A stretch of 63,895 nt of DNA, the filler included, from Welwitschia mirabilis (lineage: Eukaryota), in NCBI GenBank assembly GCA_051453625.1. It is 6 parts of one record of this genome, joined end to end, with 100 filler letters (N's around TTAATTAATTAA, not from the genome) between each part and the next. Parts side by side here need not be neighbours in the genome. Positions count along the whole stretch, not along the records: positions 50,855 to 57,266 come from JBOZIK010000001.1; 5 more parts are not named here. One strand, given 5' to 3'. The translations under genes and the position numbers were made by a program. The first letter of the stretch is position 1, and every line of letters begins with the position of its first letter. The notes under the pieces were generated by a model. It worked only from the letters and a program-made list of their open reading frames with translations. It searched no databases and had not been told where the DNA came from. This document shows positions 9,934 through 62,856 of the stretch, one piece after another.

Positions 9934-12188
9934 ATCATCCACTTGAAGAGAGATGATTAGTGTTTCATGAACCTATCTTATATGTTGATCCACTTGAAGC
10001 AAAAACTTGAAAGCTTTCAATGATGATGAATTCAACTATGAGCATTTAGGAACTGACTGTTTTAATTAGGAGAGTGAAAAAATTGAAATTATAATCCATG
10101 CAAAAGTTAAACATCTAAAAAAAACTAAGATTTCATATTTTAAGAAAGGTCATCCCTGCATATCATCTGGACAATGCCTAAGATGATAATAAATTTTAAT
10201 AAAAAATTAATAGAAACTGGAAATTTGAATTTAAATCTAAAATATTTACCTAGTGGACTAAAATATATCTTTTTATGTAATGATTTAAATAAACCTTTGA
10301 TAATAAATAGAAATATTTCCCCTCAAAAGAATCAATTTTAATCTTACTTTTGAATTCTAAGATTAATGTATTTACTTGGAATCATAAAGATTTAACGACC
10401 ATTTCTACTTCCATTATTTAACATAAAATTAACCTTGAGCATAATGCAAAACCTGTTAGGTAATTCCAACATAAACTTAATCTAACCCTTAAACAAGCCA
10501 TAAAAAATAAAATCATTAAATTAATGGATGCTAATTTATCTATTCCATATCTAATAGTAAGTGGACTAGTCCTTTGGTGGTAGTGCCTAAAAAAGGAGGG
10601 AAGTGGAGGATGTGTATTAATTTTAAAAAGCTAAATGAAGTAATAAAGAAAGATCATTGCCCTTTATCTTTTCTTAATCAAATTCTTGATAACATCCAAG
10701 GACATACCTTTAATTACTTTCTTGATGGGTATAGTGGTTATAATTAGGTTTGTATAGATAGTGAGGATCAAGTAGAAACAAATTTCACTTTATCTTTTAA
10801 AACATTTTCCTTTAGATGCATGCCTTTTGGACTTTGCAATGCTCCTAGTATTTTTCAATGTGCACTGATGGGTATCTTTTTAATTGAAATTTTTATGAAT
10901 GATTTCTTAATCTATGGTGAAAACTTTAAAAAAAATCTTAGAAATGTTAGAGAAAGTCCTTGATAAATGCATTAAGACTAACCTACATTTGACTTGGAAG
11001 AAGAGTTTCTTTCTAGTTGATAATAAAATTGTCTTAGGTTACTACATTTCTAGCAGAGGAATTAGGATGAACCCTAAAAAAGTAAGTGTCATTAAAAACC
11101 TAACTCCTCCAACAAATGTAAAACAAGTTCAATCTTTTCCTAGGCATTATGATTTTATAGTTATTTTATTTAGTATTATGCTAAAATTTGTAAACCACTT
11201 TACTCATTACTTGAAAAAAAAAAGCTAAATTTAAATGGAATGAATCTTGTAAGCTTACTTTTAGAACAATTAAAGATAAAATTACTTTTACACCTATTGT
11301 AATAGGATCCAATTAGAATAAAGATTTTAAACTAATATGTGATGCTAGTAATATTGTTGTGGATGGTGTTTTTGGATAAAAGTATGAAAATGATTTCAAA
11401 GTTATATCTTATCATAACAAAATGTTGTCTAAATCTTAATCAAATTACACTACTACTGAGAAAGAAATGTTATTTATAATATTTTTCCTTAATGCTCTTA
11501 AACACTATTTTTTAGTCTTTTATACAAATGTTTATACCAACCATGTAGCTATTAGATACCTCATAATCAAGAAAGATTCTAGTGCTAGATTCATTAGATG
11601 GATCCTCCTCATGTAAGAATTTAATTTGACCATCTATTCATAAAGAAAGGAANNNNNNNNNNNNNNNNNNNNNNNNNNNNNNNNNNNNNNNNNNNNNNNN
11701 NNNNNNNNNNNNNNNNNNNNNNNNNNNNNNNNNNNNNNNNNNNNNNNNNNNNNNNNNNNNNNNNNNNNNNNNNNNNNNNNNNNNNNNNNNNNNNNNNNNN
11801 NNNNNNNNNNNNNNNNNNNNNNNNNNNNNNNNNNNNNNNNNNNNNNNNNNNNNNNNNNNNNNNNNNNNNNNNNNNNNNNNNNNNNNNNNNNNNNNNNNNN
11901 NNNNNNNNNNNNNNNNNNNNNNNNNNNNNNNNNNNNNNNNNNNNNNNNNNNNNNNNNNNNNNNNNNNNNNNNNNNNNNNNNNNNNNNNNNNNNNNNNNNN
12001 NNNNNNNNNNNNNNNNNNNNNNNNNNNNNNNNNNNNNNNNNNNNNNNNNNNNNNNNNNNNNNNNNNNNNNNNNNNNNNNNNNNNNNNNNNNNNNNNNNNN
12101 NNNNNNNNNNNNNNNNNNNNNNNNNNNNNNNNNNNNNNNNNNNNNNNNNNNNNNNNNNNNNNNNNNNNNNNNNNNNNNNNNNNNAATT

Positions 12189-17504: not shown

Positions 17505-20500
17505 ATGATAGGAACTTCAAATTAAGATGCAAATGTTACACTTAAAGATTTAATTATTAATAGAAAATGTGAAATCCAAAATTCTTTTGATTTACCTACT
17601 AGTGACAACATATAATTAAGAAACTTGAGTGCATATCCAACATTTTTGAGGAAACTTAAGGAAGACCCTTTCCAACATTTAGCTGAAATTAAACAACTCA
17701 TACTTACCTCAGGAAATGAAAAGAAAAACATTAGTAATCGTGCTTACATAATTATTTTTCTAGTCACACTTAGAGGGGAGGCTAAGCTTTGGCTTAAAAC
17801 CATTTCACACAAGAGTCTTAAGTCATGGAGTCAAGTGCAAGAAGTTTTTATTAAAATTTTTTTAAGTGAAAGCATCATAAGAAAAAGAAGGAAGGAAGTT
17901 ATCAACTTTCAATAACAACCTCATGAAGATTATGTTACAACATATGAATGTTTTATTATAGCTATCCATTCCAACCCTATTGATGAATTTTGCAAAAAAG
18001 AATTAGTCAATTATTTCTATAGTGGATTAAATAGTCACATTAAACAACTTGCAGACTTTTATTGTAATGGTAATTTGATGAACTTAGGCTTAGAGGATGC
18101 ATGAAATATGTTGGAAAGTCTAGTAGAGATAATTCAAACTTGGCCAAAACCCACTAAGGAAAACTAAATAGGTTAAGTTAGAAAGGATTTAAAGGAAATA
18201 AAACATCATAAGGAAGAAGAGAGAGAGGATTCAATTAATTTAATCAAGTACTTTACTACTACTTTAGAGAAGTACACTCAATTGATAGTTGGTGCAAAGG
18301 TAGTAAAAGACGAAAACACGACTTCAACATGTGATATTTATGAAGACAACTCTCATCCAACTAAAGAATATTCCTTATTACCAACATGTAAAGAAAGGAT
18401 GTTTAAGGAAGTATATGAATTCAACCAAAGAACACCTAATTTTAAAAGCCAATCACAATTTTAACAAATATTAAGTGGACAATAATAATTAAAACCTTTT
18501 AAAAATAGACTTAGAAATTTAAAATTCCAACCAAATAACCTCAATTTCCAATTAAATCAAAATGATCCACTCAGAGATTTCATAAAAGAATTGATGAAGG
18601 TGCAAAAAAAGACTAATAGTAATATTGAAAACTTAGTAAATGTACTTTAATGAATGATGCTTGCCAATTAAAGACCACAAGGTTCTCTTACGTCGCAACC
18701 TTTACCCAATCCAAATAAATCAAGAGAGATTTGAAAGTAGTAACAAGAAGTGGGAATGATACAACACCTCCTACCAATGAGGTTTTAACTTTCAAACATA
18801 ATGAATAATATGATGTAGAGATTTTGGACTCATATAACTTCCCATCAACATTACATATCAAGACCTCTATTAAGAGTTCTTCCTGAGAAAACAAAGGGAA
18901 GAAACCATCTATACCTTGGCTTGATAAGTTAAACAAAAATCCTACTTATGATGAGCACTTGAAAACCTTGATGTAAGAGGTGAACATTAACTTGTTTTTC
19001 TAGAAACTCATAGAATAAAATCCTAAATAATTTAAGTTATGGAAGGATATAGTAAGAAGAAAATAAAAGCATACCATTCTTAGCAAAGTTTCTCTTGCTC
19101 AATTTATTTCCAACTTAGTCATGAGAAAATGTCCAAAATTCAAAGACCTTGAGCAGGAACTGTGAGTATTACCTAGGAAGGAAACAAAATAATTCAAAAA
19201 GCTTTAATTGATATATGAGCTAGTATAAATATCATGCCTCTTCACATATGTGAAATACTTAGGTTAGAAAATAGAATAAAACTTACATGAATTATTTTGG
19301 AATTGGCTAATACTTCAATTAAAAATCCTTAGGGATTATTAAGGATCTAGTCATCCAAATAGAGAAATATTTTTACCTCATAGAAGTAGTCATCATTTAG
19401 GTAGAATATGATGGAGGTTACACACTTTTCTTAGGAAGAGCCTTTTATAAAACTACCCACTGTATCATTGATGAACAAACCAAGATGATGGAATGTCATA
19501 TAGATAATAAGAAGTTTACCATTCGAGTTTTTAATGTTATTGAAAAGGAAACAAGAGATGAGTTTAACTTAAAAGAAGAACTTAAGGAGATATTAATAAT
19601 GCTACATGAACTAACTTTATATGATGACCGAACTGAAATACACCATCTTGAGCTTGAGGATAAGGAAGACGTCAACTGGGAGAAAACTCAATATGTTCAC
19701 TCAGTAGAAAATATTTTTATAGAGTATTGTCCCATATCTGTCGTCCTCATAATAGATAGGATGATGAGTGAAATTTCCAACTTAGAACTAAAGACGTTAC
19801 CCCAAGGTCTAAAATATATTTTCCTATTCACTAATCCAAATAAAACTTTAATAATAAGTAACTTTTTACTTCTCAATAAAAATCCAACTTGTTCTTCCTT
19901 TTAACTTCTAAAGAAGATGCCTTTGCTTGGATTTATAAAGACTTAGCTATCATCCCTTCTTCCATAGTCCAACAAAAAATTTACCTCGAAGATAATGCTA
20001 AACCTATTAGGCAATCCCAATAAATGCTCAACTTAGACCTTAAGGAAGAAGTTAGAGATGAAATTATTAAACTTATGAATGTCAGGAAAATCTATGATAT
20101 ATTTAATAGTGAGTGGATTAGCCCTTTGATAGTAGTTCCCAAAAAGGATGGGGAATTAAGAATGTGCATTGATTTTAGAAAACTTAATGAGATCACTAAA
20201 TTGGATTATTTTCCTTTACCCTTTCTTGATCAAGTACTTGATAAAATTCAAGGTCATTCCTACCATTATTTTTTTGATGGGTATAGTGGCTATAATAAAG
20301 TTTGCATAGCAAGTAAAGACAAAGCCAAAACAACCTTTACCTCATCTTTTGAAATATTTACCTTTAAATAAATGCCTTTTGGGCTTTGTAAGGGCCCTAG
20401 ATCTTTTCAACAAGTAATGATGGGGATTTTTTTGACATGATAGAGGATTCTATTAAAATCTTTATGGATGACTTTTTCATCTTTGGTGAAACTTTTGAAT

Positions 20501-22902
20501 AAATCATAAAAAGATTAGAAAAAGTCTTGGATCAATGTATAAAGAGTAACCTACATTTGAGTTGGAAAAAGAGTGTTCTCCTTATCAAATATGGAATTAT
20601 TTTAGATCATCACATTTTGAAGTATGGGATTAAGATGGACTCTATAAAAGTTGATATTATTAAAAACATTAACCCTTAAACCAATATCAAAAAAGTTATC
20701 TCATTCCTTGATCATGCTAGTTTTTATCATCATTTTATTCATGATTATGCTAAAATTTGTAAACCACTTCATTTATTACTTAAAAAAGATGCTAAATTTA
20801 ATTGGAATGATTCATGTCAACTTACATTTGATACACTTAAGAAAAATAATTCTTCTGAACCTATTATCATGGGTCTTGATTGAACTAAAGATTTTAAACT
20901 CATGTGTGATGTAAGAAGCATTACTATGGGTGGGGTTCTTGGCCAAAAAATATGAAAATGATTTTAAAGTTATATTCTATCTTAGTAAAACTTTGTCCAA
21001 AGCCCAATCAAACTTCACTACTACTAAAAAAGAAATGCTTGTCATCATCTTTTTCCTTAATCATCTTCGACATTATCATTTTGACTTCCACAACAATGTT
21101 TACATAGATCATATAGCTATATGCTATCTTATGGCTAAGAAAGATTCTAATACCAGACTTATTAGGTGGGTCTTTCTCATGCAAGAATTTAATCTTACCA
21201 TCATTAATAAGGCTAAACAACATAATAGCATTATAGATCATCTATCTTGACTTTCTTCTTCTCATGATAAACTTTCCATAAANNNNNNNNNNNNNNNNNN
21301 NNNNNNNNNNNNNNNNNNNNNNNNNNNNNNNNNNNNNNNNNNNNNNNNNNNNNNNNNNNNNNNNNNNNNNNNNNNNNNNNNNTGCTATCTTATGGCTAAG
21401 AAAGATTCTAATACCAGAATTATTAGGTGGGTCTTTCTCATGCAAGAATTTAATCTTACCATCATTAATAATGCTAAACAACATAATAGCATTATAGATC
21501 ATCTATCTCGACTTTCTTCTTCTCATGATAAACTTTCCATAAATAACTCCTTTCCAAATGAATAACTATTTGCTGTTAAATAACTTTATGCCATCTCATC
21601 TGTTCATCCTTCTCCTTAGTATTCTAATATTTTGAACTACCTTATTACTATAAAAACATCTCAGCATTGGAATCATAACCAATGTAAATATTTTCTCTAT
21701 AGGATCAATGACTATGAGTGGAATGAACCCCAACTGTATAGAAGATGCAAAGACCAAATCATGCATAAGTTTATGACTAAGTGGACAAGCANNNNNNNNN
21801 NCCAGGGTGGGGTATGTGGGGGATAATTTAATGGATAAAAGACTATCATAAAAATTCTTCACTCTAGTTTTTATTGGCCTATCCTTTTCAAAGACTTATT
21901 TAACTTTTCTAGAAGATGAGATGTGTTTTAATGTTATGGTAGCCTAACTCATTCTCAAGATATGTCTCTTAAACCTATGCTTGAATGTAAACCTTTTAAT
22001 TATTGGGAAATTAACTTTTTAAGCCCTATTAAATCACCTTTTCATGATAAAAATTACGTCCTAGAAGCTATTAATTATGTTAATAAGTAGGTTGAAGCCA
22101 TTCCTACTATAAGAATGATGCCTGAATCACTTAAAATTTTCGTTTAAATTCATATAATGATTGGGGATCTCATTTCATTAATTACCTTTTTCAAAAACTT
22201 CTTTTAGCTATTATAATTTAACATATAATTGCATGTACTTATCATGCTCAAACTAATGGCCAGACCGAAAATGAAAATAGAGAAATTAAAAGGATGCTCC
22301 ATAAATTAGTCATTGTCATTAAGAAAATGTGGTCCTATAAACTTAATGATGTCCTCTGAGCTTACCATACTACTTGGTAAAAACTCTCTAGGTTTCTCAC
22401 CTTATGAACTTATGTATGAAAATGTTTGTATCTTTCTAGTCGATGTTTGCTATAACTCCTATTGATCCATCCATCAACTTAATCTTGAAAACTTGGATAA
22501 AAATCTTAGAACTCAATTAGTCCAACCTGACCATTTAGATTAAAAAAATACTAATGCCATACATCATTAACTCATTTATAAGACCCAATCCAAGTTCAAG
22601 CATAATAAAAATATTATCTATAAGAAATTTAAACCTGGTCAACTTTTCTTTTTATATAGTATCCAAGTACATCTTTTACACAACAAGTTAACCTCTAAAT
22701 ATTAGGTCCTTATCTTATAACAAAAGTACATTCAAATAACTTAGTTGAAATATCTAATCCAAATAATAGAGAAATTCAAAAAGTTAATTGATAAAGATTA
22801 AAAATTTATGAGTTATATACTGATGAAACCTTGAACATGATAGAAGAACTTCTCTTGGAATCCCCTCTTATTGAGGAGGACTTTCCTCTTGCTATTATCT
22901 AA
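17505..22902 (+). pseudogene. Athila-like gag-pol of element B (no 5' LTR or PBS)
   Basis: Gag TLRGEAKLWL; RT WISPLIVVPKKDGELRMCIDFRKLN, FFDGYSGY, FMDD (20461-20472); RNase H NFTTTKKEML; integrase through 22902. Colinear with element A. Confidence 0.93.
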
Positions 22903-24974: not shown

Positions 24975-25074
24975 NNNNNNNNNNNNNNNNNNNNNNNNNN
25001 NNNNNNNNNNNNNNNNNNTTAATTAATTAANNNNNNNNNNNNNNNNNNNNNNNNNNNNNNNNNNNNNNNNNNNN
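24975..25074. other. Artificial scaffold spacer (44N-TTAATTAATTAA-44N)
   Basis: The same 100 bp structure recurs at 50755-50854, 57267-57366, 61229-61328 and 62757-62856; it has stop codons in all six frames. Confidence 0.95.
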
Positions 25075-35300: not shown

Positions 35301-38300
35301 NNNNNNNNNNNNNNNNNNNNNNNNNNNNNNNNNNNNNNNNNNNNNNNNNNNNNNNNNNNNNNNNNNNNNNNNNNNNNNNNNNNNNNNNNNNNNNNNNNNN
35401 NNNNNNNNNNNNNNNNNNNNNNNNNNNNNNNNNNNNCAACTGTCTTTGCATTATCTAGACGAAATCATTTGATCAAATCTCTTGCATATTTGGATTGATA
35501 GATAAATATTCCCTCTTTAGATTACTTAATTTGAAGTCCAAGAAAGATTTTAAATTCATCAAGCATACTCATTTATAATTGATTTATGATAATATTTGCA
35601 AATACTTTTGACAACTTTTCATTTTAGGCACCAAAAATAATATCATCTACATAAATCTGTATAATAATGAAATTATTTTTCAATTTGCTCAAAATAAAGT
35701 TTTGTCTACTATTCCTCAAACAAATCCATTTTCATTTAAAAAGGTAGCTAACTTTTTATACCATACTCTTAGAGCTTGTTTTAATTCATATAAAGCTTTC
35801 TTAAGCCTATATACATGATCAGATTCATAAGGATCAATAAAACCTTATGGTTGTTTAACATGAACTTTTTCAATTAATGATCCATTTAGAAAAACTTTTT
35901 ACATCCATTTGATAAACTTTGAAGTTCTTAAAGGCTGAAAAGGATAAAAACATTCTAATTCTATCCAACCTTGCAACAGGAGAAAAAGTATCTCCTACAT
36001 TAATGCCTTATATTTGGTTGTAGCCTTGAGCTACTAGTCTTGCTTTGCTTTTGATAACATTGTTTTCTTCATCACGCTTGTTCTTAAAGATCCATTTTGT
36101 ATCAATAACATTCTTATATTTTAGTCTCCTTACTAGTTTCCAAACATTATTTTTTTTGAACTGTTGTAGCTCATCTTACATTGCCAACATCCATTCTTTA
36201 TGAGTTTTTGCTTATTCAAAGTTCTTGGGCTCTATCTTTGAAACATAACAAACATGAGCATATAAATTTTTCATAGAACCTATTGTCTTTACTTTTGAGT
36301 TAAATTCTCTAATAACAGATTCTATCAAATGATATTTAAGAAGTTTAGGATTTTTCAGAGTGCCTACTTTTACTTAAATTTCATTTGTTTTAATAGCATC
36401 TTGATTTGATGTGGGAATACTTGTGGTTATGGTTTCTTCTTCATTTGTGTAGTTTTTTTTCTATCAAGTCTATCAATTTTCACATTTATTGATTCTTCTA
36501 TTGTTAAACTTTTTTTGTGAAAAACACGATAGGCTCTACTTCTCATTGAGTATCCTAAGAAAATAGCTTCATCAACTTTCAATTCAAACTTTCTTAAGTG
36601 TTCTCTATCTTTTAAGATATATAATTTAATTTTAAAGACTTTAAAGTATGACATATTTTATTGTATTCTTTTCCGAGCTCATAAGATGTTTTATTGGTAC
36701 TAGGTTTAAGATATACTCTATTAATAATATAACATGTTGTGCTAATTACCTCAGTCCAAAACAATTTAGGTACTTCCTTATCATTTAACATAGTTCGAGC
36801 CATTTCTTAAAGAACTTTATTCTTTCTTTCAACTATGTGGTGTTTTTGAAGATGAAAACTGATAATAAATACCATTTTCAATGCAATAATTCTCAAGAAA
36901 ATGATTTTCAAATTCACGAACATGATCACTTCTTATTTTATTTATAGTATTACCTTTTTCATTTTGAATCTTATTGCAAATTTCAACCCAATGTTTANNN
37001 NNNNNNNNNNNNNNNNNNNNNNNNNNNNNNNNNNNNNNNNNNNNNNNNNNNNNNNNNNNNNNNNNNNNNNNNNNNNNNNNNNNNNNNNNNNNNNNNNCTT
37101 TGAAATCTATCTGAATCAACAAATTTTAAGATCATTAGCTTTCACTCACATAGTCCTTTAGACTTATGTGGTACATCCTTTTTAGGAATAAACTTAAATG
37201 GAAGGGAGCTAACTGAATTTGAAAACAACATTAATTTTTTAGCATTACATATAAGTTTTGAACAGCCTATTTTTCCATAGAAATGACAAGTAACATTTGA
37301 AGAAAAATTACCATTGCTGGTTACCTGATTTTGCTATGTTTGAGGTTTTTAAGAGATGAAGCCAATACCTGATTTGATGCCAACTAATTTCTAAACTCCA
37401 AATATTTATTCCAATTTGGTCGATCCACATGAAAACTTATTAACAAAATAAGATAATTCTTTTACTTATAAAGTGGATTGAAGTTTTTGGATTTGACTCT
37501 TGTGAGACTTGATTCCATCTCCTCCTTTTTCTTAGTGAGGGATTTTATAACCTTGTTTAAGTCATTTATCCTTCTAGCTAGTTGTTCACATTCTTGATAT
37601 AACTCTTGATAAGTGTCTTCCAAATCTTCTTGTTCTTCATTTCTCATATCATCATCATCATGGATTAATGTATTTTGCACATTCTATAATAGAGGCACAA
37701 AAGCCATAAAAGAAATTCTTCTTTCTTTGTTATGTTCTAGAGTATCTCTTTTGTTTCTTTCACTTTATTCCTATGAGTTTTTACTAGCTGCAATCTATTT
37801 AAAAAAATAACCATATACTATTCAATAAATCCAAATAAAGGCACAGGTATTTAGGGAGGGCATACTTAAAAAATCATCATCAAAAGCTACCATTATGGGG
37901 TTCTAAGTCTAGACTGGTTAAGATCTAAGAAAATAACTTAATCTGCTCTGATACTAAATGATAGAATTGAGAATCCTAGGTAAGGGGTGAATAAGTTCTT
38001 TCAAAAATTTAACAATTAAACTAAAATAAATCTATTTGAACCATAACTTTTATAAATTAATCTATAATGTGCATAAAATATTAAGATACTGAAAGTAAAT
38101 AATCAAAAATGAACAGCACAAACTAGTAATTTGATGTAAGCCAGATTTATAGTGGTTTAAGAACTTCCTTACTCCACTCTCAATGATCAGCTTCTCCCAA
38201 CGTAGATCTCAGTTCTCTGTTACTTCCCCCAGGTATTCCAAGTTCACTTATAACCTTTATAAGTGGACTTTTTTAGGCTAAGTCTCAACCTTTACAATGG

Positions 38301-49039: not shown

Positions 49040-50720
49040 CTGAGTAAGGCAAGTCCTTTTTGGACTTAATACCTAGAAAATACCAAAGGATTAAAAAAGA
49101 TCTAAAAATAGAGGTTTTGTAAAAATATTGACCAATTGATCTTCTATGCATACATATTCTAAAGATATGATTTTTTTTCTATTAATTCATGAATAAAATA
49201 ATACTTGATACTGATGTGTTTGATTCAAGTGTGTTGGATTATGTTGTGAGCTATTTGAATAGCACTTAAGTTGTCATAAAGAATTGGTACTTCCATGATG
49301 TTCAGCTCATAGTCTTTCAAGGTCTCTTTCATCCATAAGATCTGAGGGCAACAAACTCCAGTGACTGTGTATTCAGCTTCAAAGGTAGAGAGGAATATAG
49401 AGCATTATTTCTTGCTATACCAGGATATGAGATAATTTCCAAAGAAGAAACATCCACCACTTGTGCTTTTATAATCATCTTTGAATCCATCCCAATCTGT
49501 ATCGATATATCCTATTAAACTTAAAGTAGTATCATTTGAAAACCATAAACTAGAATTTAGAATACCTTTCACATAGCGTAGTATTCTCTTTGCAGCTATA
49601 AGATGTGATTCCTTTGGTTTTCTTTGATATCTGGCATACAAACCAATACTAAAGGCTATATTTGGGCGACTAGCCATTAGATATAATAGACTTCCAATAA
49701 TACTATGATANNNNNNNNNNNNNNNNNNNNNNNNNNNNNNNNNNNNNNNNNNNNNNNNNNNNNNNNNNNNNNNNNNNNNNNNNNNNNNNNNNNNNNNNNN
49801 NNNNNNNNNNCATAAACCAAAATCTAGAGTACCTTTCACATAGCGTAGTATTCTCTTTGTAGCTATAAGATGTGATTCCTTAGGTTTGCTTTGATACCTG
49901 GCATACAAACTAGCACTAAAGGCTATATCTGGATGACTAGCTGTTAGATATAATAGACTTTTAATAATACTACGATATACCTTTTGATCCACATCCTTGT
50001 CATGTTTATCTAATGAAAGTTTAACATTTGTGGCCATTGGAGAGTCCATACACTTTGCATTTTCTAGTTTGAATTTTTTAATAAAATCTAAAGAATATTT
50101 ATTTCAATTGATAAAGTTTCCCTATTTGTGTTGCTCAATTTATAAACCCAAAAACATATTTACAGGTTCAACCATCCTCATTTCAAATTTAGAACTCATG
50201 AGTTTGATAAAATTATTTGACAAGTTTTCATTTGTTGATCCAAAAATAATATCATCAACATATATTTGTACTAGAATTAAATCATTATTCAAAACTTTTT
50301 GAAATAAAGTTCTATCAATGGAGCCTCTAAAAAAACCATGTTAAAGCAAGAATGATGAAAGCTTTTCATACCAAGCTCTAGGAGCTTGTTTTAACCCATA
50401 CAAGGCTTTGTTAAGTTTTTAGACATATTCAGGATTGTGAGGATCAGAAAAGCCTTGATTTTGTTTAACATAAAATTATTCTTTAATATTTCCATTAAGA
50501 AAAGAGCTTTTTACATCTATTTGAAAAACTTTCATTTTCTTGAAACAAGAAAAATCTAGAAACATCCTGATTGATTCCAATCTAGCAACTGGAGTAAATG
50601 TGTCTTCACAATCTACTCCTTCTATTTGGTAATATCCTTGGGCCACTAATCTAGCTTTGTTCTTTGTAATTTTATTATTTTCATTTATTTTATTTCTTAA
50701 AATCCACTTTATGCCTATGA
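49040..50720 (-). pseudogene. Copia RT and RNase H
   Basis: KARLVAQGY, LYGLKQAPRAWY, IYVDDII, SLLYLTASHPDIAFS, KSTSGGCFF, EAEY, KHISIKYYFIHE, QLVNIFTKPL. Confidence 0.93.
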
Positions 50721-50958
50721 ATTTTTTTTTTTTTTTTATTTTGGATTAAGTGTTNNNNNNNNNNNNNNNNNNNNNNNNNNNNNNNNNNNNNNNNNNNNTT
50801 AATTAATTAANNNNNNNNNNNNNNNNNNNNNNNNNNNNNNNNNNNNNNNNNNNNGAACTTTATGAAGTTAATACACTTTGTCTTGCATTTTTATTGAGTT
50901 AGCTTTATGATGTCTTATGTGGGGATTTGCTAGGTTAGAATTTAGGTTATGTAAGTAG

Positions 50959-51225
50959 TATTATTAGAAATATAGACTTTCAAGGCATTTCTAAATCACC
51001 TTAAATGCTTTTAGGGTGTTTCTTCATAAAATTCTTTAAAAAATGTCACCTTAAAAGCTTAGATGTTTTTAACGCATTTATAAGTTATTTTTATTAAAAT
51101 GACTCAAAAGGATTTTGATGCATTTTGAGAAATGTCTCAAAAGCCTTTTAAGGTGTTTTAACAAATAAATGAGTTAAAAGCCTTTTGAGGCATTTTATGA
51201 AATAAATGCCTTAAAAGCCTTTCTT
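50959..51225. mobile_element. CACTA/EnSpm-like transposon end: decayed TIR plus subterminal repeats
   Basis: TATTATTAGAAA matches CACTACTAGAAA after C>T changes. It is followed by several direct and inverted copies of AAATGCCTYAAAAG / CTTTTRAGGCATTT. The other end is not in the scaffold. Confidence 0.55.
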
Positions 51226-54200
51226 GTGAAAAACAACCTGCTCATATTCTAAAATAGCAAAAAAATATAATATCTCAAATAGAATAAAATATCTTTATAA
51301 ATGTCACCAAAAAAATAATGTATGATTCACAAAAATAGCATAATATATTAACATGAACCAAAAAAAAAATTTATAATTTTAATGCATCCTTAGAACTAAA
51401 AACTAAATATCCCTTGAAAAATCTCAAGGAAAAGTCCATACTTTACCTCAGAATGTGAGTGTTGTAACTCCTTTAAATATAGAAGGATATGTAAAGCTTT
51501 TTTGGTATTTAAACTAGTTGTATTAGTGGATGCTTTAGTGTGTGCTTCTCCTATAATGAAGGGTCTTCTTGAAACACAGACCATTCTAAGTTCCTCTATC
51601 CATGTGCATAACTCTGGACTCTTCTTGTTTTAGTGCATTATTATTACTTGGCTATTATGATAATGAATCTTATACAAAATAGTTGGATTAAGGATAAGCA
51701 AATATAAAAGCTTGGAAAAGGAAGACAAGTTTCTTGGAATATTTGTAGTCATAGCCATTTCTAGAACATGTAGCTTTCAAAACACAGCCAAAGAGACTCT
51801 TTAAATTGTCAGTACTAGAGCTACTTAAAGGTGCTTTGACATTAATGTTGTTGAGATACAAGCTTTTGTAGATGTCACATAATTCTCGATCAATTTGATC
51901 TTCTTCTTAGAAAAATGACTTTATCTTTAGTAGCTTTGACTACAACATTGTTTGTCATTTTCATTAAATCTCCTTTTTTTCCTATATTTAATTTTTAGAT
52001 CCATGTTTTTTGGATTTGAATTTTAAATATCAACATTATAAATCATTATAAATGCAAAATGAAATATAGAGAGTGTAATATTACTAGAGGAGAAGGAGAG
52101 TATTGTGTTTTAGTGTGGACAACTTAAAGGAATTGTTTTCCATGCTTTGCCTTAGACATGTGAGTGCCCAAAAAAAATAGAATCTATAATTAAATTGAAC
52201 TTTTAGCATGATTTTTCTTATTATAATGGTGAAGTTAAGTGGAGGATACCATTGATGCTATAAGCAAAAAATGGTGTTAGTAACAAAGAAGTAAGCCAAG
52301 CTATGTAATGTTATAAAACATAGAAAACAAACTGTCATAACCCTACATTCAAAAAGGAATAATGGAAGAAATAAAGAAAAATATAAGAAGATGAAACTCT
52401 TACTTATGTAAATCCTTCTCTTCTCAAGTGGTATTTCCACTCTAAACCTTGTGAGACTCAAGTATATTTCCTAGAAAAACATTCAACTACAAGAAATAAC
52501 CTACAAAACTAATGCATAGGTATAATACAACACAATAAAAAAAAGAGGAAAGTTATAGAAGTGACATGAGCAAAGAAAAATTTATCATTAATAATGATTT
52601 TATATAAAAGAGTAATGACTGAGACTGGAAGCCATTGCTATAAATTAAAAAACCAATAATAACACTGAGAGGGACATTCCTATCACCATGGTTAAGCTGT
52701 GGGAAGAGAAAAAAAGGAAACCACAGAGAGGACAATGGTTCTCCTACCAAAAAATCTATAAAAGGAATAAAATAGATAAGAACAAATTGAAATACTCACA
52801 AAAGAATTACCATTCATGATAAAAAAGACATAGCCAAAGCATATTAAAATACTAGTCTAGCATTTTACAAGAAGTCAGTCCCATCTGTCCAATAAAAAAT
52901 AAAACAATAAAAGGTAAAAAAGAATCATATGGCTCAAGATGACTAATGTATTCAACCAATAACAACATATAACTAAATGTTTTTTTAAAAAGAAATTAGA
53001 GTTCTATTTAATTTAAAAATTATGTATAAACTCTTAATGATAAGCATATGAAGTAATAGAGGAAGTATTAGGGAGCCTTCCCTACACTTACCCTTCATCT
53101 AGTAAGAAAGGGAGTTATTAAAAGTGCTGAGACCCAAGATTCTTGCTCCGCATCAGCAAAGGTAAGGACCCTCTTTCTCACCCTATTGATGTTGGGTGAT
53201 ATTCTTTTGATGATACTTCTAAGGCTATTAGGCACTAAAAGAAGTATATCAAAACCTAGAGAAACCTGCAAGCCTAAGATCTTCAAGGAATCTATGTTCA
53301 GCCATAGTAGTCAGAATGACCTTGGAGGGAACGACATCCTCTAAATCTCTTAGGTATCATAAACTAGTTGATTATGATGTAATAAATAGAGATATCTCAT
53401 GCTACTTCTTGCATAGTGTAGACATGTAAATACCTATTAAATGACTGAGATCTCCTCACTTGTGAGATTCCTAGAGTGAACACAAAAGGAAGCATTTACT
53501 TTTATAACTATTAATCATCAAAGAGAAAATAGTAAAAGCCATGTAAGACTCCAAATATTAGGGAAGGATATTTAAATACAATATCTATGTAAATAAACTG
53601 ACATCAAATCTTGCTAGAAGTAATCCTACAATAGAATTTTATAGACTACAAAAATCTAGTGACATCAGGAAAGCATACTGGGCAAGGTGTCACTCTTCTA
53701 TAATAAGATCAAGCTCATGATATGAGAGGTAGCCTCTTCCTATTATTGGAATATCATTGTGTGCTATGTCTTGAAAATGTATTGTCTAGCAAGAAGGCCA
53801 CTAACCATTAACAATAGAAAATAACCCTCAAAATGGACATACTGCTAGTTGCCAATCATAATGTAAATTTACAAAATTACATATAAATAAAAATAAGCTA
53901 AATTATCAATATATGTTTTACATTAGAAAAATGGCATGCTATATTCAATTATTTTGAGTATGTTTAACTCTTAAAAAGTAGTTTTCCAAAATTAAGTTTG
54001 AGAAGGCACTTAGCGAGGGAAAAGAAAAAGGACAGAAACTTTTCACACATGGCATACATTCTTCTTTTTAAGTTTTTTCTGATGTATTTCATCTCAATTA
54101 TGATTCTATTTTCACCATAAAAATCATGATNNNNNNNNNNNNNNNNNNNNNNNNNNNNNNNNNNNNNNNNNNNNNNNNNNNNNNNNNNNNNNNNNNNNNN

Positions 54201-54945
54201 NNNNNNNNNNNNNNNNNNNNNNNNNNNNNNNNNNNNNNNNNNNNNNNNNNNNNNNNNNNNNNNNNNNNNNNNNNNNNNNNNNNNNNNNNNNNNNNNNNNN
54301 NNNNNNNNNNNNNNNNNNNNNNNNNNNNNNNNNNNNNNNNNNNNNNNNNNNNNNNNNNNNNNNNNNNNNNNNNNNNNNNNNNNNNNNNNNNNNNNNNNNN
54401 NNNNNNNNNNNNNNNNNNNNNNNNNNNNNNNNNNNNNNNNNNNNNNNNNNNNNNNNNNNNNNNNNNNNNNNNNNNNNNNNNNNNNNNNNNNNNNNNNNNN
54501 NNNNNNNNNNNNNNNNNNNNNNNNNNNNNNNNNNNNNNNNNNNNNNNNNNNNNNNNNNNNNNNNNNNNNNNNNNNNNNNNNNNNNNNNNNNNNNNNNNNN
54601 NNNNNNNNNNNNNNNNNNNNNNNNNNNNNNNNNNNNNNNNNNNNNNNNNNNNNNNNNNNNNNNNNNNNNNNNNNNNNNNNNNNNNNNNNNNNNNNNNNNN
54701 NNNNNNNNNNNNNNNNNNNNNTGAAATTTGCATTGCATTACACACCTTACTCTTTTACTTTGTTTTTCTATCTTTCCTTTAGTGACATATAAATGAAGAA
54801 TTCAAAGATCGTTTTGTTCATAATGGGTTTGATTAAAAGACATAGGTTGATTTTTATACACTTAGTCTCCAAAGAGGCTTCTAAAATATTAGGCCTAAAA
54901 AAGGATGTAGTAGTAGCTTATACTTTATAAACTCATGAGGTTAGT

Positions 54946-56130
54946 TTATCTACTACGAATGTAGATGTAACTCTAAAGAATAATCAAGTCTTCACTAATG
55001 ATGCTGATGATGACCTTGATTTCCCTGCAAAGGAATTCTATTTCATTTCAAATGCCATCAAAAAAATCTTATAAGAAAAGATTATCATTGCTACAGGTGA
55101 GGAGGATAGAGAAACTAAATGTGATCTTATAATGGAAGCATCATTAGTCATACATAAAGCTATGGCCTTCATGATGAGGCATGATACTATAATCATCTAT
55201 GTTAGAATAAAACAAGATGCCCTAAATAGACTGGTTGACCACTTATGGTTTTAAACAAAGAAAGTAAGGATAAAATTATTATAGCCTTTACAATTTTTGA
55301 TGATGCAAAAACTAGTATAAACACTAGTGTTTAAGCTATAGATAGGGCAAACACAATTTTGGCACTTGCTTCTAATGAGTATAAGGATGAAGATTTCAGA
55401 AGATCTAGTTATAATTTTTCTTTGTAGTCCCCCCCAGGAGTTTTTTTAAAGANNNNNNNNNNNNNNNNNNNNNNNNNNNNNNNNNNNNNNNNNNNNNNNN
55501 NNNNNNNNNNNNNNNNNNNNNNNNNNNNNNNNNNNNNNNNNNNNNNNNNNNNGCAAACACAATTTTGATACTTGCTTTTGATGAGTCTAAGGTTAAAGAT
55601 TTTAGAAGACCTAGTTATATTTTTTCTTTGTAGTACAAGTAAGGAGTTTTTTTAAAGAGAGGTGACCATGTAGAAGCTTCTATAGATCTAGCATCACTTT
55701 TATCAACTAGCGTTTTAATGGAAACCTTGCAAAATAGCATCACATCCCATTGATATCAATAATAGATCATGTTTGGTACTGCAAAAAGCATGAAACACTA
55801 GTTGAATAGAGTGCAATTACAAGGTTATCTATAATGTGAATAACATTTCAAGTCTACTATTATCATTCAAAACTAGATGAAATTGGGTATATTTCCATGG
55901 TTAAGGGTTACATAGGTCATGGAAAATATGTGCTTATAAGAGTACATTATAAGTATCTCACAAGGGATATATTTGGATTTGGTAGATGTGACTGTAACAA
56001 TCAACTTACAATAGTAATGCAGCACATTAAGAAACCTAACAGAGAAGCACTGGTCTACTTGAGAGATTGGGAGAATAGGAGCACTAGCTTTGAACAAAAA
56101 CTTGGATCATATAACCTTGGTGAAGGATGA
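54946..56130 (+). pseudogene. RIBA: Intronless, 3'-truncated pseudogene of riboflavin biosynthesis protein RIBA (DHBP synthase / GTP cyclohydrolase II)
   Basis: Translates to DDDLDFPAKEF..EEDRETKCDLIMEASLV..AMAFMMRH..AFTIFDDAK..DRANTILALAS..EDFRR..GDHVEASIDL..SKLDEIGYISMVKGYIGHGKYVLIRVH..DIFGFGRCDCNNQL..LVYLR..KLGSYNL, colinear with plant RIBA. Has many stops and a short internal deletion. Confidence 0.92.
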
Positions 56131-56149
56131 TTTCCTTTGAGCATATGAA

Positions 56150-56860
56150 CTTTAAGCACTGGTCTTCATGACAAAACTCCATTGAAAATGTCTAATACAT
56201 TGAACAACATAAATTTCCTATGTTATCTATCAGAAGGGATTGTTTTAGATCTAGAAACTTTGTAGTTAAAGTTAGAGAGTAGAGATGCTCAAATTTCTCA
56301 TCTAAAACAAGAAGTTACAAAGTGTACTAATAATATATTAATTATATAAGAGAAAATGAAAGGAAAAGCCAATGAACTAAAGAAGCTACAACATTTTTTA
56401 GAAACCCTATTATCAAAATTTTTAACACATCAAATTATTTCTAAGAATAGTGAAGGCAAGGGAACACTCGCCCCTTGAATGTACTTAAAAATAATATTTC
56501 TATTATCATATCCAAATCTAAAAATATATAGGATAAATATAAAGTAAACTTTCAAACTATAATTCATGATTTATCAAATAAGATTAATGGCATTGAGTCA
56601 TTACTTCATGATAAAGAAAATCAATTTAAATAGTTTCAAAAAGAGAGAAGTTCTAGATTTACTTCTACTAGTAATTACTCACAGATGTTAGAAATTAAAA
56701 AAATAGAAAAAATAAGTGGCCTCATATATTATTTTCTATGGCACCACATATTAAAATCACTAATAGTTTACTAAAAGTCCTAAAATTAGACATGGCAGAT
56801 AAGAGATGATATTACCATTAATTGAACAAAATGAAATATTCATGAGTTATTTGTCTATAA
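56150..56860 (+). pseudogene. TNO1: Fragment resembling the C-terminal coiled-coil region of TGN-localized SYP41-interacting protein 1
   Basis: LSEGIVLDLETL*LKLESRDAQISHLKQEVTKCTN resembles the remembered TNO1 motif LSENLLAEIEKLQQQVQDRDTEVSFLRQEVTRCTN. Further on: IESLLHDKENQ..SQMLEI and SMAPHIK. Recognised from memory only. Confidence 0.65.
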
Positions 56861-57366
56861 AGAAAAATAGCAATTGAAAAAATTTTCAAAGATAAAACAT
56901 TTTCAAGAATAATTTGAGATGATTTCAAGCCTTGTTTTGCATTTGAATAAGAAAGAGTTTGTCTAATCACATTGATAAGAAGAATCACATATATTAATTC
57001 AGGAAAAATGGGGAATGGATGGTTTCGTAACTAAAAAAAAAAAAAATTGAAAAATCAAATTTTTGGCTTATCTTTAATGTGCTTTCTTGATCTAGTTCTT
57101 CTCTTCTAGCTTGTTGACAATGAATATAATAAAGGCAATGACATCATGCAATTGCAAAGTACTATTGAAGTTACTAAAGCTTAAAAAATGTCATTCGTCA
57201 GTAATAAGACACCATCCTCTAGAAATAAAAGTACTAGTCTACTTGAGAGGGAAATTTCCTTTTATTNNNNNNNNNNNNNNNNNNNNNNNNNNNNNNNNNN
57301 NNNNNNNNNNTTAATTAATTAANNNNNNNNNNNNNNNNNNNNNNNNNNNNNNNNNNNNNNNNNNNN

Positions 57367-60171
57367 TCATTCTCGATCTGGCTATATATCAATGTGTTAT
57401 CAAAGTAAACTACAATAAACTTTCTAATGTAAGGTTTTAATACCTAATTCATAAGCTGCATAAAGGTACTGGAAGCATTTGACAACTCAAATAGCATTAC
57501 CAACCATTCATACAACCCTTCCTTTGTCTTGAAAGCTATCTTTCACTCATCCCTAGGCCTAATTCAAATTGGTGATAGTCATTCTTCATATCCAGCTTTG
57601 AAAACCACCTGACTCCATGCAAAATGTTCAACATGTTATCCAATCTAAGAATTGAAAATTTGTATCCCACTGTGATCTTATTAATGGCGCTGCTATCTAT
57701 TCACATTCTCAAGCTACCATCCTTCTNNNNNNNNNNNNNNNNNNNNNNNNNNNNNNNNNNNNNNNNNNNNNNNNNNNNNNNNNNNNNNNNNNNNNNNNNN
57801 NNNNNNNNNNNNNNNNNNNNNNNNNNNNNNNNNNNNNNNNNNNNNNNNNNNNNNNNNNNNNNNNNNNNNNNNNNNNNNNNNNNNNNNNNNNNNNNNNNNN
57901 NNNNNNNNNNNNNNNNNNNNNNNNNNNNNNNNNNNNNNNNNNNNNNNNNNNNNNNNNNNNNNNNNNNNNNNNNNNNNNNNNNNNNNNNNNNNNNNNNNNN
58001 NNNNNNNNNNNNNNNNNNNNNNNNNNNNNNNNNNNNNNNNNNNNNNNNNNNNNNNNNNNNNNNNNNNNNNNNNNNNNNNNNNNNNNNNNNNNNNNNNNNN
58101 NNNNNNNNNNNNNNNNNNNNNNNNNNNNNNNNNNNNNNNNNNNNNNNNNNNNNNNNNNNNNNNNNNNNNNNNNNNNNNNNNNNNNNNNNNNNNNNNNNNN
58201 NNNNNNNNNNNNNNNNNNNNTCCATATCCACAATATCACAGTATACCTCATCTTTATATTTACTAATTCAAAAAGGAACTTTACAGCATTCATTTACCTC
58301 AATGCGATCTGCTACAGATTTAATCCAACTCAAGGTGTAAGGATTTGGGTGTTTTTTTACTATAATCCCCAGCTTTTTGACTATCTCTCTTCTAATAATA
58401 TTCTTCATGCTATCACTGTCCATGACCATAGTAAATATCTTGTCAAAGATGGTGCACCTAGTCTAAAACAGTTGATGGCATTATGATTAGTCATCTAGTT
58501 TTGGAGCTAGCATCATTCTTCATACTATGTAAGCAGCTTCTTCTACCTCCTCATTTTCGAACCCATCTTCATCTCCATCTGGCTCATAGTAATATGCATC
58601 CTCCTCATCTTCTCTAGTCACCATGTTTATTGTTTTTCTCTGAGGGCATTCATTCGATCGGTAATCCCATTGGTTACATTGATAACAATTGCTAGTTATT
58701 GGTCTTGTATAAAGGTTTGTAGCTTTTTGAGTCTACGCCTCCTTCTCCATCATATCTATCATGGATCGCTTTCCTATAACCGTTTCCTCTTGGTTCTTAT
58801 TGCTGTTACCATAATGATTACCATGTCCTACTATTTTTTGTAATATTTTTGGCCTTTTAACTGCACTGATAGATCTAAAATTTTTCAAGCCCCTTCTACT
58901 CCTCTCCTGCTGCATCATCTCTGCCTTCATCACCATATTCTTAGCCTCAGATAGCGTCCTCAACATCTGCACATCAATTCTGTCTCTAATATAGGATTTT
59001 AATCCATCAATGTACCTAGTTATTTGTTGCCCTTCAGTCTCTGCCAGATTATTCTGCTCAGCCAGTCTCATGAAATCTATGGTATACTCATGCACTGAAC
59101 GATTACCCTATTGGTAACATTGGTATTATTTGAACAATATCTTCTTATAGTTAGGCGATAAGAATTCCTAAGTCAACAATTTTCTCATTCGAGACCAAGT
59201 ACAAACTCGATCCCTTCCTTCATGCTCTCTTATTCTCTACAATCTATCCTACCATGCTGAAGCATCTCGCTTTAGTCAGTAAGTAATCAATCTAACTCGC
59301 TTTTCAACAGGAGTATCCATATAATCAAAGAACCTATCAACATCGGCAAGCCAATCCAATAACTCCTCTATTTTCAAGCCTCCATTAAAATAATGAATAT
59401 CAACCTTTAACTTAAAATCGTTACCTTCTTGATCTTCATTTCTTCTATATCATCCTCCTTACTATCTTCTACCATATTGAAAATCTTGTTCTTTCTTAAG
59501 CTCATCTAATTCTTCTTTTGAACTATCATCTTTAATAAAATTCGATCTGGGAATAGGAACAGGCCTATAGGTAGGGTCATCATAAGTAACATCAACTCCT
59601 AGACTTCTACCATTGATCTGGTTCTAGTTCACATCGACACTTAGAACATGTAGATGATCTGTAATCTCATCAGTTTGCTCCTCAAAGTGACGGAATTTGT
59701 GATCATTTTCTTGCTCTAATCACTCCATTAAACGTTGCTCCAATTGTTGCAATTCTTAATCCCTAAGGATCAGGGCTCTAGTCTCCTAAGCATCCTCATG
59801 GAGACCACCGCCATCATAGCCAGTCATCATTAGGCTCTGATACCACTTGAAGCAGCATGAAAAGCGTTCAAAGAAAAAACCTTAAAAAGGAAGAGAAATC
59901 TAAATAAATTCTATTTCAAAAATTATGTCTACAATAGTACATGATATACTTATTTATAATACATAAGTCCTTTTAATGAAATTCCTAAACAATGTGGGAT
60001 TAGAGAAAAATAAGGAAGCAATAATAAAAGATGAAATATAAAGGTGGGGGTTACATCACTCCACGAAGTAATAATAAATGCTAAAAAATAAAGATGAAAG
60101 TTACACCACTCCATCCCTCTTAACTAGGCTCGGCCCCATCCATGAGTTAACATGAGGTACATTTCACATCA
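57367..60171 (-). mobile_element. CRM-like chromovirus (Ty3/gypsy): short 5' LTR, iMet PBS, gag, zinc knuckle, protease, start of RT
   Basis: LTR 59848-60171 (TGATG...CTTCA on minus); PBS GCTCTGATACCA at 59834-59845; gag LKVDIHYFNG..LDWLADVDRFFDY and [49 protein letters not shown]. Confidence 0.85.
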
Positions 60172-61228: not shown

Positions 61229-61328
61229 NNNNNNNNNNNNNNNNNNNNNNNNNNNNNNNNNNNNNNNNNNNNTTAATTAATTAANNNNNNNNNNNNNNNN
61301 NNNNNNNNNNNNNNNNNNNNNNNNNNNN

Positions 61329-62756: not shown

Positions 62757-62856
62757 NNNNNNNNNNNNNNNNNNNNNNNNNNNNNNNNNNNNNNNNNNNN
62801 TTAATTAATTAANNNNNNNNNNNNNNNNNNNNNNNNNNNNNNNNNNNNNNNNNNNN

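What the first reader, a model, noticed from the sequence alone, without database searches (positions are those of the whole stretch)
54946..56860. Chimera of two intronless host-gene fragments (RIBA + TNO1-like) joined head-to-tail
Seen: about 1.1 kb of RIBA coding sequence runs without introns and breaks off at ...YNLGEG. Within ~20-40 bp a second fragment on the same strand begins that resembles the TNO1 C-terminus. Established: plant RIBA and TNO1 genes have multiple exons, and DNA-level capture (Pack-MULE, CACTA, Helitron) normally keeps introns. Inference: these are spliced-mRNA copies fused by template switching during reverse transcription. They lie ~3.7 kb inside a CACTA-like end, so they may be RNA-derived cargo of a DNA transposon.
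Basis: partly seen in the sequence, partly recalled or inferred. Interest (0 to 1): 0.78.

Follow-up and report, generated by a model that had tools for sequence, protein, structure and literature searches.

The report
Decayed, possibly chimeric RIBA retro-pseudogene
This is a dead, intron-free copy of part of a plant riboflavin-synthesis gene (RIBA), probably made from messenger RNA and possibly fused to the tail of a second transcript: an ordinary kind of genomic fossil.

Summary
The RIBA part is real. Pfam finds DHBP_synthase and GTP_cyclohydro2 (E 3e-17) in the right order on the + strand. A bacterial RibBA aligns colinearly from residue 2 to 310 of 397, at 55036-56124, with no intron-sized interruption. 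The copy has frameshifts, stops and almost no CpG. It spans two contigs; the 100-N gap between them is flanked by a 106-nt overlap at 85% identity, so its true length is about 1.0 kb.

The TNO1 identity of the second fragment (56149-56771) could not be confirmed. All eight homology searches were negative (and the relevant part). It has as few stop codons as the RIBA part, ends in a hydrophobic tail and a stop, and an A14 run lies 260 nt further on.

The CACTA-cargo idea fails. The window is a concatenation of small scaffolds joined by N44-TTAATTAATTAA-N44 linkers, and the finding sits on an isolated 6.4-kb scaffold (50855-57266). That scaffold has no TIR, LTR or transposase or RT domain.

Best reading (about 0.5): a decayed chimeric retrocopy made by RT template switching. 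This is a known kind, so interest is low.

The parts
54793..55035 (+). Possible remnant of the plant-specific RIBA N-terminal region, upstream of the DHBPS domain. The 5' end of the copy is undefined and may lie in the 591-N gap at 54131-54721.
   Evidence: It is in the same frame as the first DHBPS match, with 1 stop in 94 codons over 54793-55074. The background is about 8 stops per 100 codons (my estimate from the base composition). No homology test was possible.
55036..55452 (+). RIBA pseudogene, DHBPS domain first part (contig B). It has one frame change and stops.
   Evidence: Pfam DHBP_synthase 2-62 and 65-125. tblastn q2-70 and q83-137.
55453..55552 (.). 100-N scaffold gap between two contigs that in fact overlap.
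   Evidence: 55347-55452 and 55553-55658 are the same 106 nt at 84.9% identity in the same register. 11 of the window's 13 100-N gaps show such overlaps.
55553..56127 (+). RIBA pseudogene, DHBPS end plus GTP cyclohydrolase II positions 7-104 of 165 (contig C). It ends at ...YNLGEG.
   Evidence: Pfam DHBP_synthase 98-177 and GTP_cyclohydro2 7-104, E 3.2e-17. tblastn q105-151 and q179-310. PDB 4i14.
56128..56148 (+). Junction interval: TGA at 56128 and TGA at 56146. No N and no simple repeat, and it lies inside one contig.
   Evidence: RIBA similarity does not continue past 56124.
56149..56771 (+). Fragment X: a stop-poor remnant of an unidentified reading frame. It reads in the frame of 54790 to about 56475, then in the frame of 54792 from 56454. 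It ends in ...ISGLIYYFLWHHILKSLIVY and a stop at 56772.
   Evidence: 4 stops in 193 codons allowing one frameshift, the same as the RIBA part; window median 8; 211 of 1565 windows have 4 or fewer. No homologue was found in any search.
56772..57032 (+). 3'-UTR-like spacer between the stop of X and the A run.
   Evidence: A 42.5%, GC 26%. This is an inference only.
57033..57046 (+). A14 run, a candidate remnant of a poly(A) tail.
   Evidence: It is one of only 2 A runs and 2 T runs of 12 nt or more in the 56.6 kb of non-N sequence.
57267..57366 (.). Artificial scaffold linker N44-TTAATTAATTAA-N44. Sequence beyond it is not physically linked to the finding.
   Evidence: Five identical linkers in the window, at 24975, 50755, 57267, 61229 and 62757.

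Best explanation
This is a long-dead chimeric retrocopy (processed pseudogene). A reverse transcriptase from a resident retroelement began copying a polyadenylated transcript X from its 3' end, leaving the A14 remnant, a UTR-like stretch of about 260 nt and the last roughly 200 codons of X. It then switched template to a spliced RIBA mRNA at about codon 310 (bacterial RibBA numbering). It copied RIBA towards its 5' end, and the product was integrated. The locus was then silenced and decayed through CpG loss, stops, frameshifts and a small deletion.

SHOWN: the RIBA identity, its colinearity without introns, the abrupt end, the shared strand and the A run.

INFERRED: that the parent RIBA gene has introns there, that X is a gene fragment, and that the join was made by template switching. 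Whether the RT was of LINE or LTR type is also unknown. It has no function today.
For: - RIBA domains are in the right order and colinear over q2-310 with no intron-sized insertion.
- Published plant RIBA genes have 7 exons (Arabidopsis, PMC2699525 legend). A DHBPS site lies in exon 4 (maize) and a GCHII-domain site in exon 6 (faba bean). At least two exon junctions should therefore lie inside the copied interval.
- The copy keeps the 5' two-thirds of RIBA and lacks the 3' third. Simple 3'-primed retroposition does not give this pattern, but a template switch does.
- X starts about 20 nt after the break on the same strand. Its stop-codon density equals that of the RIBA part: 4 in about 190 codons each, against a window median of 8.
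- X ends with a hydrophobic tail and a stop.
- An A14 run lies 260 nt downstream, one of four homopolymer A or T runs of 12 nt or more in the window.
- The junction is inside one contig with no N.
- CpG observed/expected is 0.07-0.09 across RIBA, X and the flank, so they share the same old, silenced state.
Against: - X has no detectable homologue. phmmer of its last 106 codons against 1.84 billion representatives gave only 3 repeat-driven bacterial hits. Three further protein searches, Pfam and the Atlas found nothing.
- The stop paucity of X is not exceptional: 211 of 1565 windows, or 13.5%, have 4 or fewer stops.
- No target-site duplication was found, although the 5' end may lie in a 591-N gap.
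- Parent genes, microhomology and read support could not be examined, because no genome is held for this window.
- Contigs B and C overlap at only 85% identity. The two halves of RIBA may therefore come from different copies or haplotypes.
Confidence: 0.5

Rival explanations
1. A plain RIBA processed pseudogene whose 3' third was lost later by deletion, insertion or rearrangement. On this view X is unrelated flanking or transposable-element-derived DNA and the A14 run is incidental.
For: X has no homologue in any search. Its stop-codon paucity is shared by 13.5% of windows in this repeat-rich sequence. Hydrophobic and coiled-coil-like translations are easy to obtain from 74% A+T DNA. No TSD was found.
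Against: A stop-poor frame starts within about 20 nt of the break, on the same strand. It ends in a stop followed at a typical UTR distance by one of the window's rare long A runs. X matches nothing else in the window at the DNA or protein level, including the many retroelement remnants.
Confidence: 0.27
2. An assembly artefact. The RIBA-X join, or the join of the two RIBA halves, was made by a short-read assembler or scaffolder from different repeat copies and does not exist in the genome.
For: The assembly is a fragmented draft: 38 N runs in 64 kb. It has artificial linkers and un-merged overlapping contigs at 11 of 13 100-N gaps. The overlap inside RIBA is only 85% identical, so contigs B and C are not the same molecule or copy.
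Against: The RIBA-X junction lies 575 nt inside contig C, with no N, repeat or low-complexity sequence at the join. Both contigs carry RIBA in the same register, so the intronless RIBA copy itself is real in any case.
Confidence: 0.1
3. One reading: RNA-derived fragments carried as cargo inside a CACTA or other DNA transposon (Pack-MULE, Helitron).
For: A 37-nt palindromic sub-repeat array lies at 50993-51222, 3.7 kb upstream on the same scaffold. It resembles subterminal repeats of some DNA transposons; that resemblance is recalled, not tested.
Against: No CACTA terminus or inverted-repeat pair was found. No transposase domain occurs in any of the six frames of 50855-54130 at E <= 0.1. The downstream candidate end is on a different scaffold. 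DNA-level capture would normally keep introns.
Confidence: 0.03
4. The intronless RIBA sequence is not a retrocopy of a spliced plant mRNA. Instead it descends from an intronless source, such as a bacterial ribBA transfer or an intronless RIBA paralogue.
For: Bacterial RibBA aligns over the whole fragment at 26-43% identity. The best plasmid-borne bacterial matches are 38-41% identical. No plant RIBA protein could be brought in for comparison, because the word search failed.
Against: The reading frame stays nearly open (1 stop) for about 80 codons upstream of the point where bacterial RibBA starts. A plant-type N-terminal extension would give this pattern. Composition and CpG depletion match the surrounding plant repeat DNA.
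Confidence: 0.05

Closest known systems
Chimeric retrocopies formed by reverse-transcriptase template switching in plants. The review PMC5470649 cites Wang et al. 2006 for rice and Elrouby and Bureau 2010 for maize Bs1; I saw only passages of the review.
   Same: Intronless partial copies of host transcripts joined head-to-tail on one strand, in a genome rich in LTR retroelements.
   Different: Those cases are flanked by LTR or retroelement sequence. Here no LTR or RT lies within the 6.4-kb scaffold, and the second partner is unidentified.
LINE-mediated processed pseudogenes and bipartite chimeric retrocopies, described mainly in mammals (recalled, not from any call).
   Same: A 3' poly(A) remnant. 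The order is the 5' part of one RNA followed by the 3' part of another RNA and then the A run, as expected if RT starts at a poly(A) tail and then switches template.
   Different: No target-site duplication or LINE was seen. The A run is short (14 nt) and old.
Plant RIBA genes: AtRIBA1, maize O18/ZmRIBA1 and faba bean VC1.
   Same: Same two domains in the same order, DHBPS then GCHII.
   Different: The last 61 of 165 GCHII profile positions are missing. The copy has stops, frameshifts and a deletion, and the conserved DHBPS site HG.G reads HDTI. It is a pseudogene, not a paralogue.
MAG3/TNO1 (AT1G24460), a tail-anchored coiled-coil protein.
   Same: X translates to a charged, heptad-like stretch followed by a hydrophobic C-terminal tail and a stop. 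The published description is coiled coils plus a C-terminal transmembrane domain (PMC11880317 passages).
   Different: No sequence similarity could be shown. Such features arise easily in A+T-rich DNA.

Membership tests
RIBA (bifunctional DHBPS / GTP cyclohydrolase II) | Both Pfam domains (PF00926 then PF00925) on one strand in order | tested here: met
   DHBP_synthase 2-177 in three frame pieces, GTP_cyclohydro2 7-104 with E 3.2e-17; colinear tblastn q2-310.
RIBA (bifunctional DHBPS / GTP cyclohydrolase II) | Intact open reading frame with a complete GCHII domain (a functional gene) | tested here: not met
   Stops and at least three frame changes. GCHII profile positions 105-165 are absent.
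Processed pseudogene / retrocopy | Coding sequence continuous where the parent gene has introns | tested here: inconclusive
   Continuity is shown. Intron positions are known only from other plants' published gene models. This species' parent gene is not available.
Processed pseudogene / retrocopy | Poly(A) remnant at the 3' end | tested here: met
   A14 at 57033-57046, one of 4 A or T runs of 12 nt or more in the window. It follows X, not RIBA.
Processed pseudogene / retrocopy | Flanking target-site duplication | tested here: inconclusive
   No shared k-mer of 9 nt or more between 57047-57090 and 53000-54130 or 54722-55040. The 5' end may lie in the 591-N gap.
Chimeric retrocopy by template switching | Second fragment derives from a different spliced transcript | tested here: inconclusive
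   X has no homologue. Only its stop paucity and the downstream A run support a transcript origin.
Chimeric retrocopy by template switching | Microhomology between the two parent RNAs at the junction | not testable with these tools
   Neither parent sequence is available.
TNO1/MAG3 family | Sequence similarity to TNO1/MAG3 or its paralogue AT4G31570 | tested here: inconclusive
   phmmer against 1.84 billion representatives found no plant protein at E <= 0.001. The word-based searches found none. No TNO1 sequence could be obtained for a direct alignment.
CACTA / DNA-transposon cargo | CACTA terminal inverted repeats with 3-bp TSD enclosing the fragments | tested here: not met
   No inverted-repeat pair other than the N linkers. 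CACTACAA with up to 1 mismatch: 56 found against 48 +/- 6.5 expected. The scaffold ends at 57266.
CACTA / DNA-transposon cargo | Transposase remnants in the element | tested here: not met
   0 Pfam families in the six frames of 50855-54130 at E <= 0.1.
LTR-retrotransposon-borne capture (Bs1-like) | Fragments flanked by LTR or retroelement sequence on both sides | tested here: inconclusive
   No LTR pair or RT/gag domain within 50855-57266. The scaffold is only 6.4 kb with 791 N. The gypsy and copia remnants nearby in the window are on other scaffolds.

The most novel reading that the evidence does not exclude
The RIBA-X chimera may not be a one-off insertion. It could be the cargo of a multi-copy, non-autonomous retroelement family that amplified after capturing the two transcripts, as maize Bs1 did. 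The hint is that the two contigs meeting inside RIBA overlap at only 85% identity. The overlaps inside the multi-copy copia region of this window are similarly low (82-89%), whereas 8 other 100-N gaps show 94-100%. This suggests at least two diverged RIBA-fragment copies in the genome.
Probability: 0.2. Interest if true: 0.35.

Novelty: new member of a known kind. Interest (0 to 1): 0.15.

Why it matters
It matters little beyond annotation. The locus should be masked or labelled as a RIBA pseudogene so that it is not counted as a riboflavin or vicine-pathway paralogue. It is one more example of RNA-mediated gene-fragment shuffling in a retroelement-rich plant genome. It would become moderately interesting only if the junction turns out to be multi-copy (a gene-carrying retroelement family) or if X proves to be a spliced fragment of a defined gene, which would give a clean plant example of a two-transcript template switch. 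The practical lesson for the scan is that in this assembly, neighbours across N44-TTAATTAATTAA-N44 linkers are unlinked, and duplications flanking 100-N gaps are artefacts.

Tried and rejected
1. A whole-genome look-up for junction copies and parent genes: no genome is held.

2. Fetching a plant RIBA protein with the word-indexed search, 'longer' mode: 30 candidates, none scored. A bacterial RibBA from a plasmid record was used instead.

3. Identity of X, all negative:
- phmmer of 56454-56771 against 1.84 billion representatives gave 3 hits, all long bacterial repeat proteins matched in 4-9 stretches, judged spurious.
- The word search of 56191-56475 found nothing in 'longer' mode (122 candidates, none at E <= 1) or in 'near' mode (no candidate).
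- Pfam at E <= 1 and <= 10 gave only sub-threshold coiled-coil noise: DUF16 at 0.14, Csm1_N at 0.45.
- The ESM Atlas on the 46-aa open tail gave a best score of 0.75 to bacterial hypotheticals, which is uninformative.
- The metagenome scan with five peptide patterns matched 461 stretches, none confirmed.
- tblastx of X against the window gave one 16-aa match at E 0.5.

4. A simple full-length RIBA retrocopy, with X being the decayed rest of RIBA: rejected. There is no GCHII match beyond profile position 104 in any frame. PDB phmmer of 56084-56260 found nothing at E <= 10. The only tblastn match past 56124 is q301-321 at 56301-56363 with E 22.

5. Junction copies in metagenomes: an exact 24-mer gave 0 matches.

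6. TSD search: none.

7. Rfam and tRNA scans of the scaffold, looking for an snRNA, SINE or tRNA partner: only two sub-threshold miRNA-like hits on the palindromic repeat at 51172-51230, and 0 tRNAs.

8. Earlier findings of this scan: nothing on record.

9. Supplements of PMC11880317: only one spreadsheet is readable and the PDFs are not. I did not open the spreadsheet. The paper's supplementary phylogeny or alignment of MAG3 homologues might have allowed a comparison by eye.

Full report
WHAT THE WINDOW IS

The 63,895-base window is 29% G+C with 38 runs of N totalling 7,288 bases. Five of the N features are identical 100-nt spacers, N44-TTAATTAATTAA-N44, at 24975, 50755, 57267, 61229 and 62757. 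Reading these six-frame-stop spacers as artificial joins between unlinked scaffolds is my recollection of common practice, not a tool result. On that reading the finding lies on a small scaffold, 50855-57266. It is made of contig A (50855-54130), a 591-N gap, contig B (54722-55452), a 100-N gap and contig C (55553-57266).

The gypsy RT and gag remnants on the minus strand at 57.3-59.1 kb and the copia RT at 49.2-50.7 kb are therefore not physically linked to the finding. The rest of the window is a graveyard of decayed gypsy and copia elements.

Of the 13 plain 100-N gaps, 11 are flanked by the same sequence in the same register. Eight of these show 94-100% identity and three show 62-89%. These gaps are un-merged contig overlaps, not missing DNA.

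THE RIBA PART

With stops read as X, the three + frames of 54931-57002 give Pfam DHBP_synthase positions 2-62, 65-125 and 98-177. They then give GTP_cyclohydro2 positions 7-104 of 165 (E 3.2e-17). The longest open piece, 55840-56127, scores E 3.2e-18 on its own and matches residues 224-319 of the M. tuberculosis RibBA structure 4i14.

A RibBA protein from a Priestia megaterium plasmid aligns colinearly by tblastn:
- q2-70 at 55036-55242
- q83-137 at 55284-55451
- q105-151 at 55559-55699
- q179-310 at 55726-56124

The double coverage of q105-137 is the contig overlap: 55347-55452 against 55553-55658, 106 nt, 84.9% identical. Once that overlap and the gap are removed, the fragment is about 1.0 kb. 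It has no room for any intron and is about 50 nt short around q152-178.

Similarity to RIBA does not continue after that point. Pfam finds no further GCHII stretch, PDB phmmer finds nothing, and the only later tblastn match has E 22. Upstream of the point where bacterial RibBA begins, the same frame has a single stop in 94 codons (54793-55074). This fits a plant-type N-terminal extension.

CpG observed/expected is 0.07-0.09 throughout the scaffold. The copy is old and was long methylated.

ARE INTRONS REALLY SKIPPED?

The parent gene of this species cannot be seen, because no genome is held. Published gene models give the following, all seen as passages only:
- AtRibA1 has exons 1-7 (PMC2699525 figure legend).
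- In maize O18/ZmRIBA1, residue G185 of the DHBPS domain (equivalent to E. coli RibB G62) lies in exon 4 (PMC9342611).

The equivalent DHBPS site is at about 55183 in the window, and the GCHII match runs to 56124. If the gene structure is conserved, at least two exon junctions lie in an interval that is continuous here. This is inference, but it makes an RNA origin likely (about 0.8).

THE SECOND FRAGMENT (X)

From 56149 a stop-poor frame runs on the same strand. It changes frame near 56460 and ends ...ISGLIYYFLWHHILKSLIVY with a stop at 56772. Allowing one frameshift, it has 4 stops in 193 codons. That is the same as the RIBA part, against a window median of 8. However, 211 of 1565 windows (13.5%) do as well, many of them retroelement remnants.

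An A14 run lies 260 nt after the stop, at 57033-57046. It is one of only two A runs and two T runs of 12 nt or more in 56.6 kb.

MAG3/TNO1 is described as a coiled-coil protein with a C-terminal membrane anchor and eight exons (PMC11880317 passages), so the anatomy is compatible. I could not show any sequence relationship:
- phmmer of the last 106 codons against 1.84 billion representatives returned three bacterial repeat proteins, which I judge spurious, and no plant protein.
- Two word-indexed searches found nothing.
- Pfam found nothing above noise.
- The Atlas was uninformative.
- A metagenome scan found nothing.
- tblastx against the window found nothing.

These negatives are weak, because the sequence is badly decayed. 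The same word search also missed RIBA itself.

SURROUNDINGS AND THE CACTA IDEA

Contig A, the only linked upstream DNA, has no Pfam domain in any of six frames at E <= 0.1. The scaffold has no inverted-repeat or direct-repeat pair apart from the contig overlap and a small 37-nt palindromic tandem array at 50993-51222. CACTA-type 8-mers are at chance level. The region about 3.7 kb downstream (about 60.5 kb) is on another scaffold. No TSD candidate was found, but the 5' end of the copy may lie in the 591-N gap. Rfam and tRNA scans add nothing.

MECHANISM

The copy keeps the 5' two-thirds of RIBA and lacks the 3' third. Ordinary 3'-primed retroposition would give the opposite pattern. The simplest account of the whole layout (5' RIBA, then the 3' end of X, a UTR-like spacer and an A run) has three steps. 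Reverse transcription starts on the poly(A) tail of transcript X. RT then switches template to RIBA mRNA. The product is integrated and decays.

[quoted passage not shown] The LINE-type variant is recalled from the mammalian literature. I give this reading about 0.5.

The rivals are:
- a plain RIBA retro-pseudogene later truncated, with X as unrelated DNA (0.27)
- an assembly chimera (0.10)
- an intronless non-mRNA source (0.05)
- DNA-transposon cargo (0.03)

The 85% overlap between contigs B and C hints that more than one diverged copy exists. That would favour a transposable-element-borne, amplified cargo (0.2, the most novel reading left open).

VERDICT

The RIBA observation is confirmed, with corrections. 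The TNO1 identity is undetermined. The retro-origin is likely, template switching is plausible, and CACTA cargo is unsupported. This is an ordinary fossil of a known kind, so interest is low.

Noticed in passing
window 24975-25074, 50755-50854, 57267-57366, 61229-61328, 62757-62856: Identical artificial spacers, N44-TTAATTAATTAA-N44. The window is a concatenation of small scaffolds, so adjacency across these points carries no biological meaning. This matters for any other first-stage finding in this window that relies on neighbourhood.
   Followed up: yes
window, the 13 plain 100-N gaps (e.g. 5657, 21283, 28203, 39365, 49711, 55453): 11 of 13 are flanked by the same sequence in the same register, 41-244 nt long and 62-100% identical. 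These are un-merged overlapping contigs that look like short tandem duplications. The low-identity ones (48123, 49711, 55453) probably join different copies of a repeat.
   Followed up: yes
window 50993-51222: An array of a 37-nt unit (AAATGACTTAAAAGCCTTTTAAGGCATTTTAACAAAT-like) with an internal palindrome. TRF reports 2.5 copies and the repeat finder reports 4 looser copies. It gives sub-threshold miRNA-like Rfam hits (29 bits against gathering scores of 72-86). It may be a subterminal repeat of some element or a small hairpin satellite.
   Followed up: partly
window 17616-21247 (+), 10535-11613 (+), 57315-59107 (-): Decayed Ty3/gypsy remnants (gag, RVT_1, RT_RNaseH). The element at 17.6-21.2 kb is the best preserved and includes a 167-codon open frame at 19401-19901 with no Pfam match.
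   Followed up: no
window 36011-36657 (-), 49228-50745 (-): Decayed Ty1/copia remnants (RVT_2, SH3_retrovirus).
   Followed up: no
window 37465-37683 (-): A 73-codon open frame next to the copia remnant, with ten weak coiled-coil-type Pfam hits (best TMF_DNA_bd at E 1.3e-4, below cut-off). It is unrelated to fragment X by tblastx.
   Followed up: partly
literature (PMC12202586 passages): Faba bean VC1C alleles of RIBA1 lack the whole of intron 3. This is a published example of intron loss in a live plant RIBA gene, so RNA-mediated events at RIBA loci are not unprecedented.
   Followed up: no
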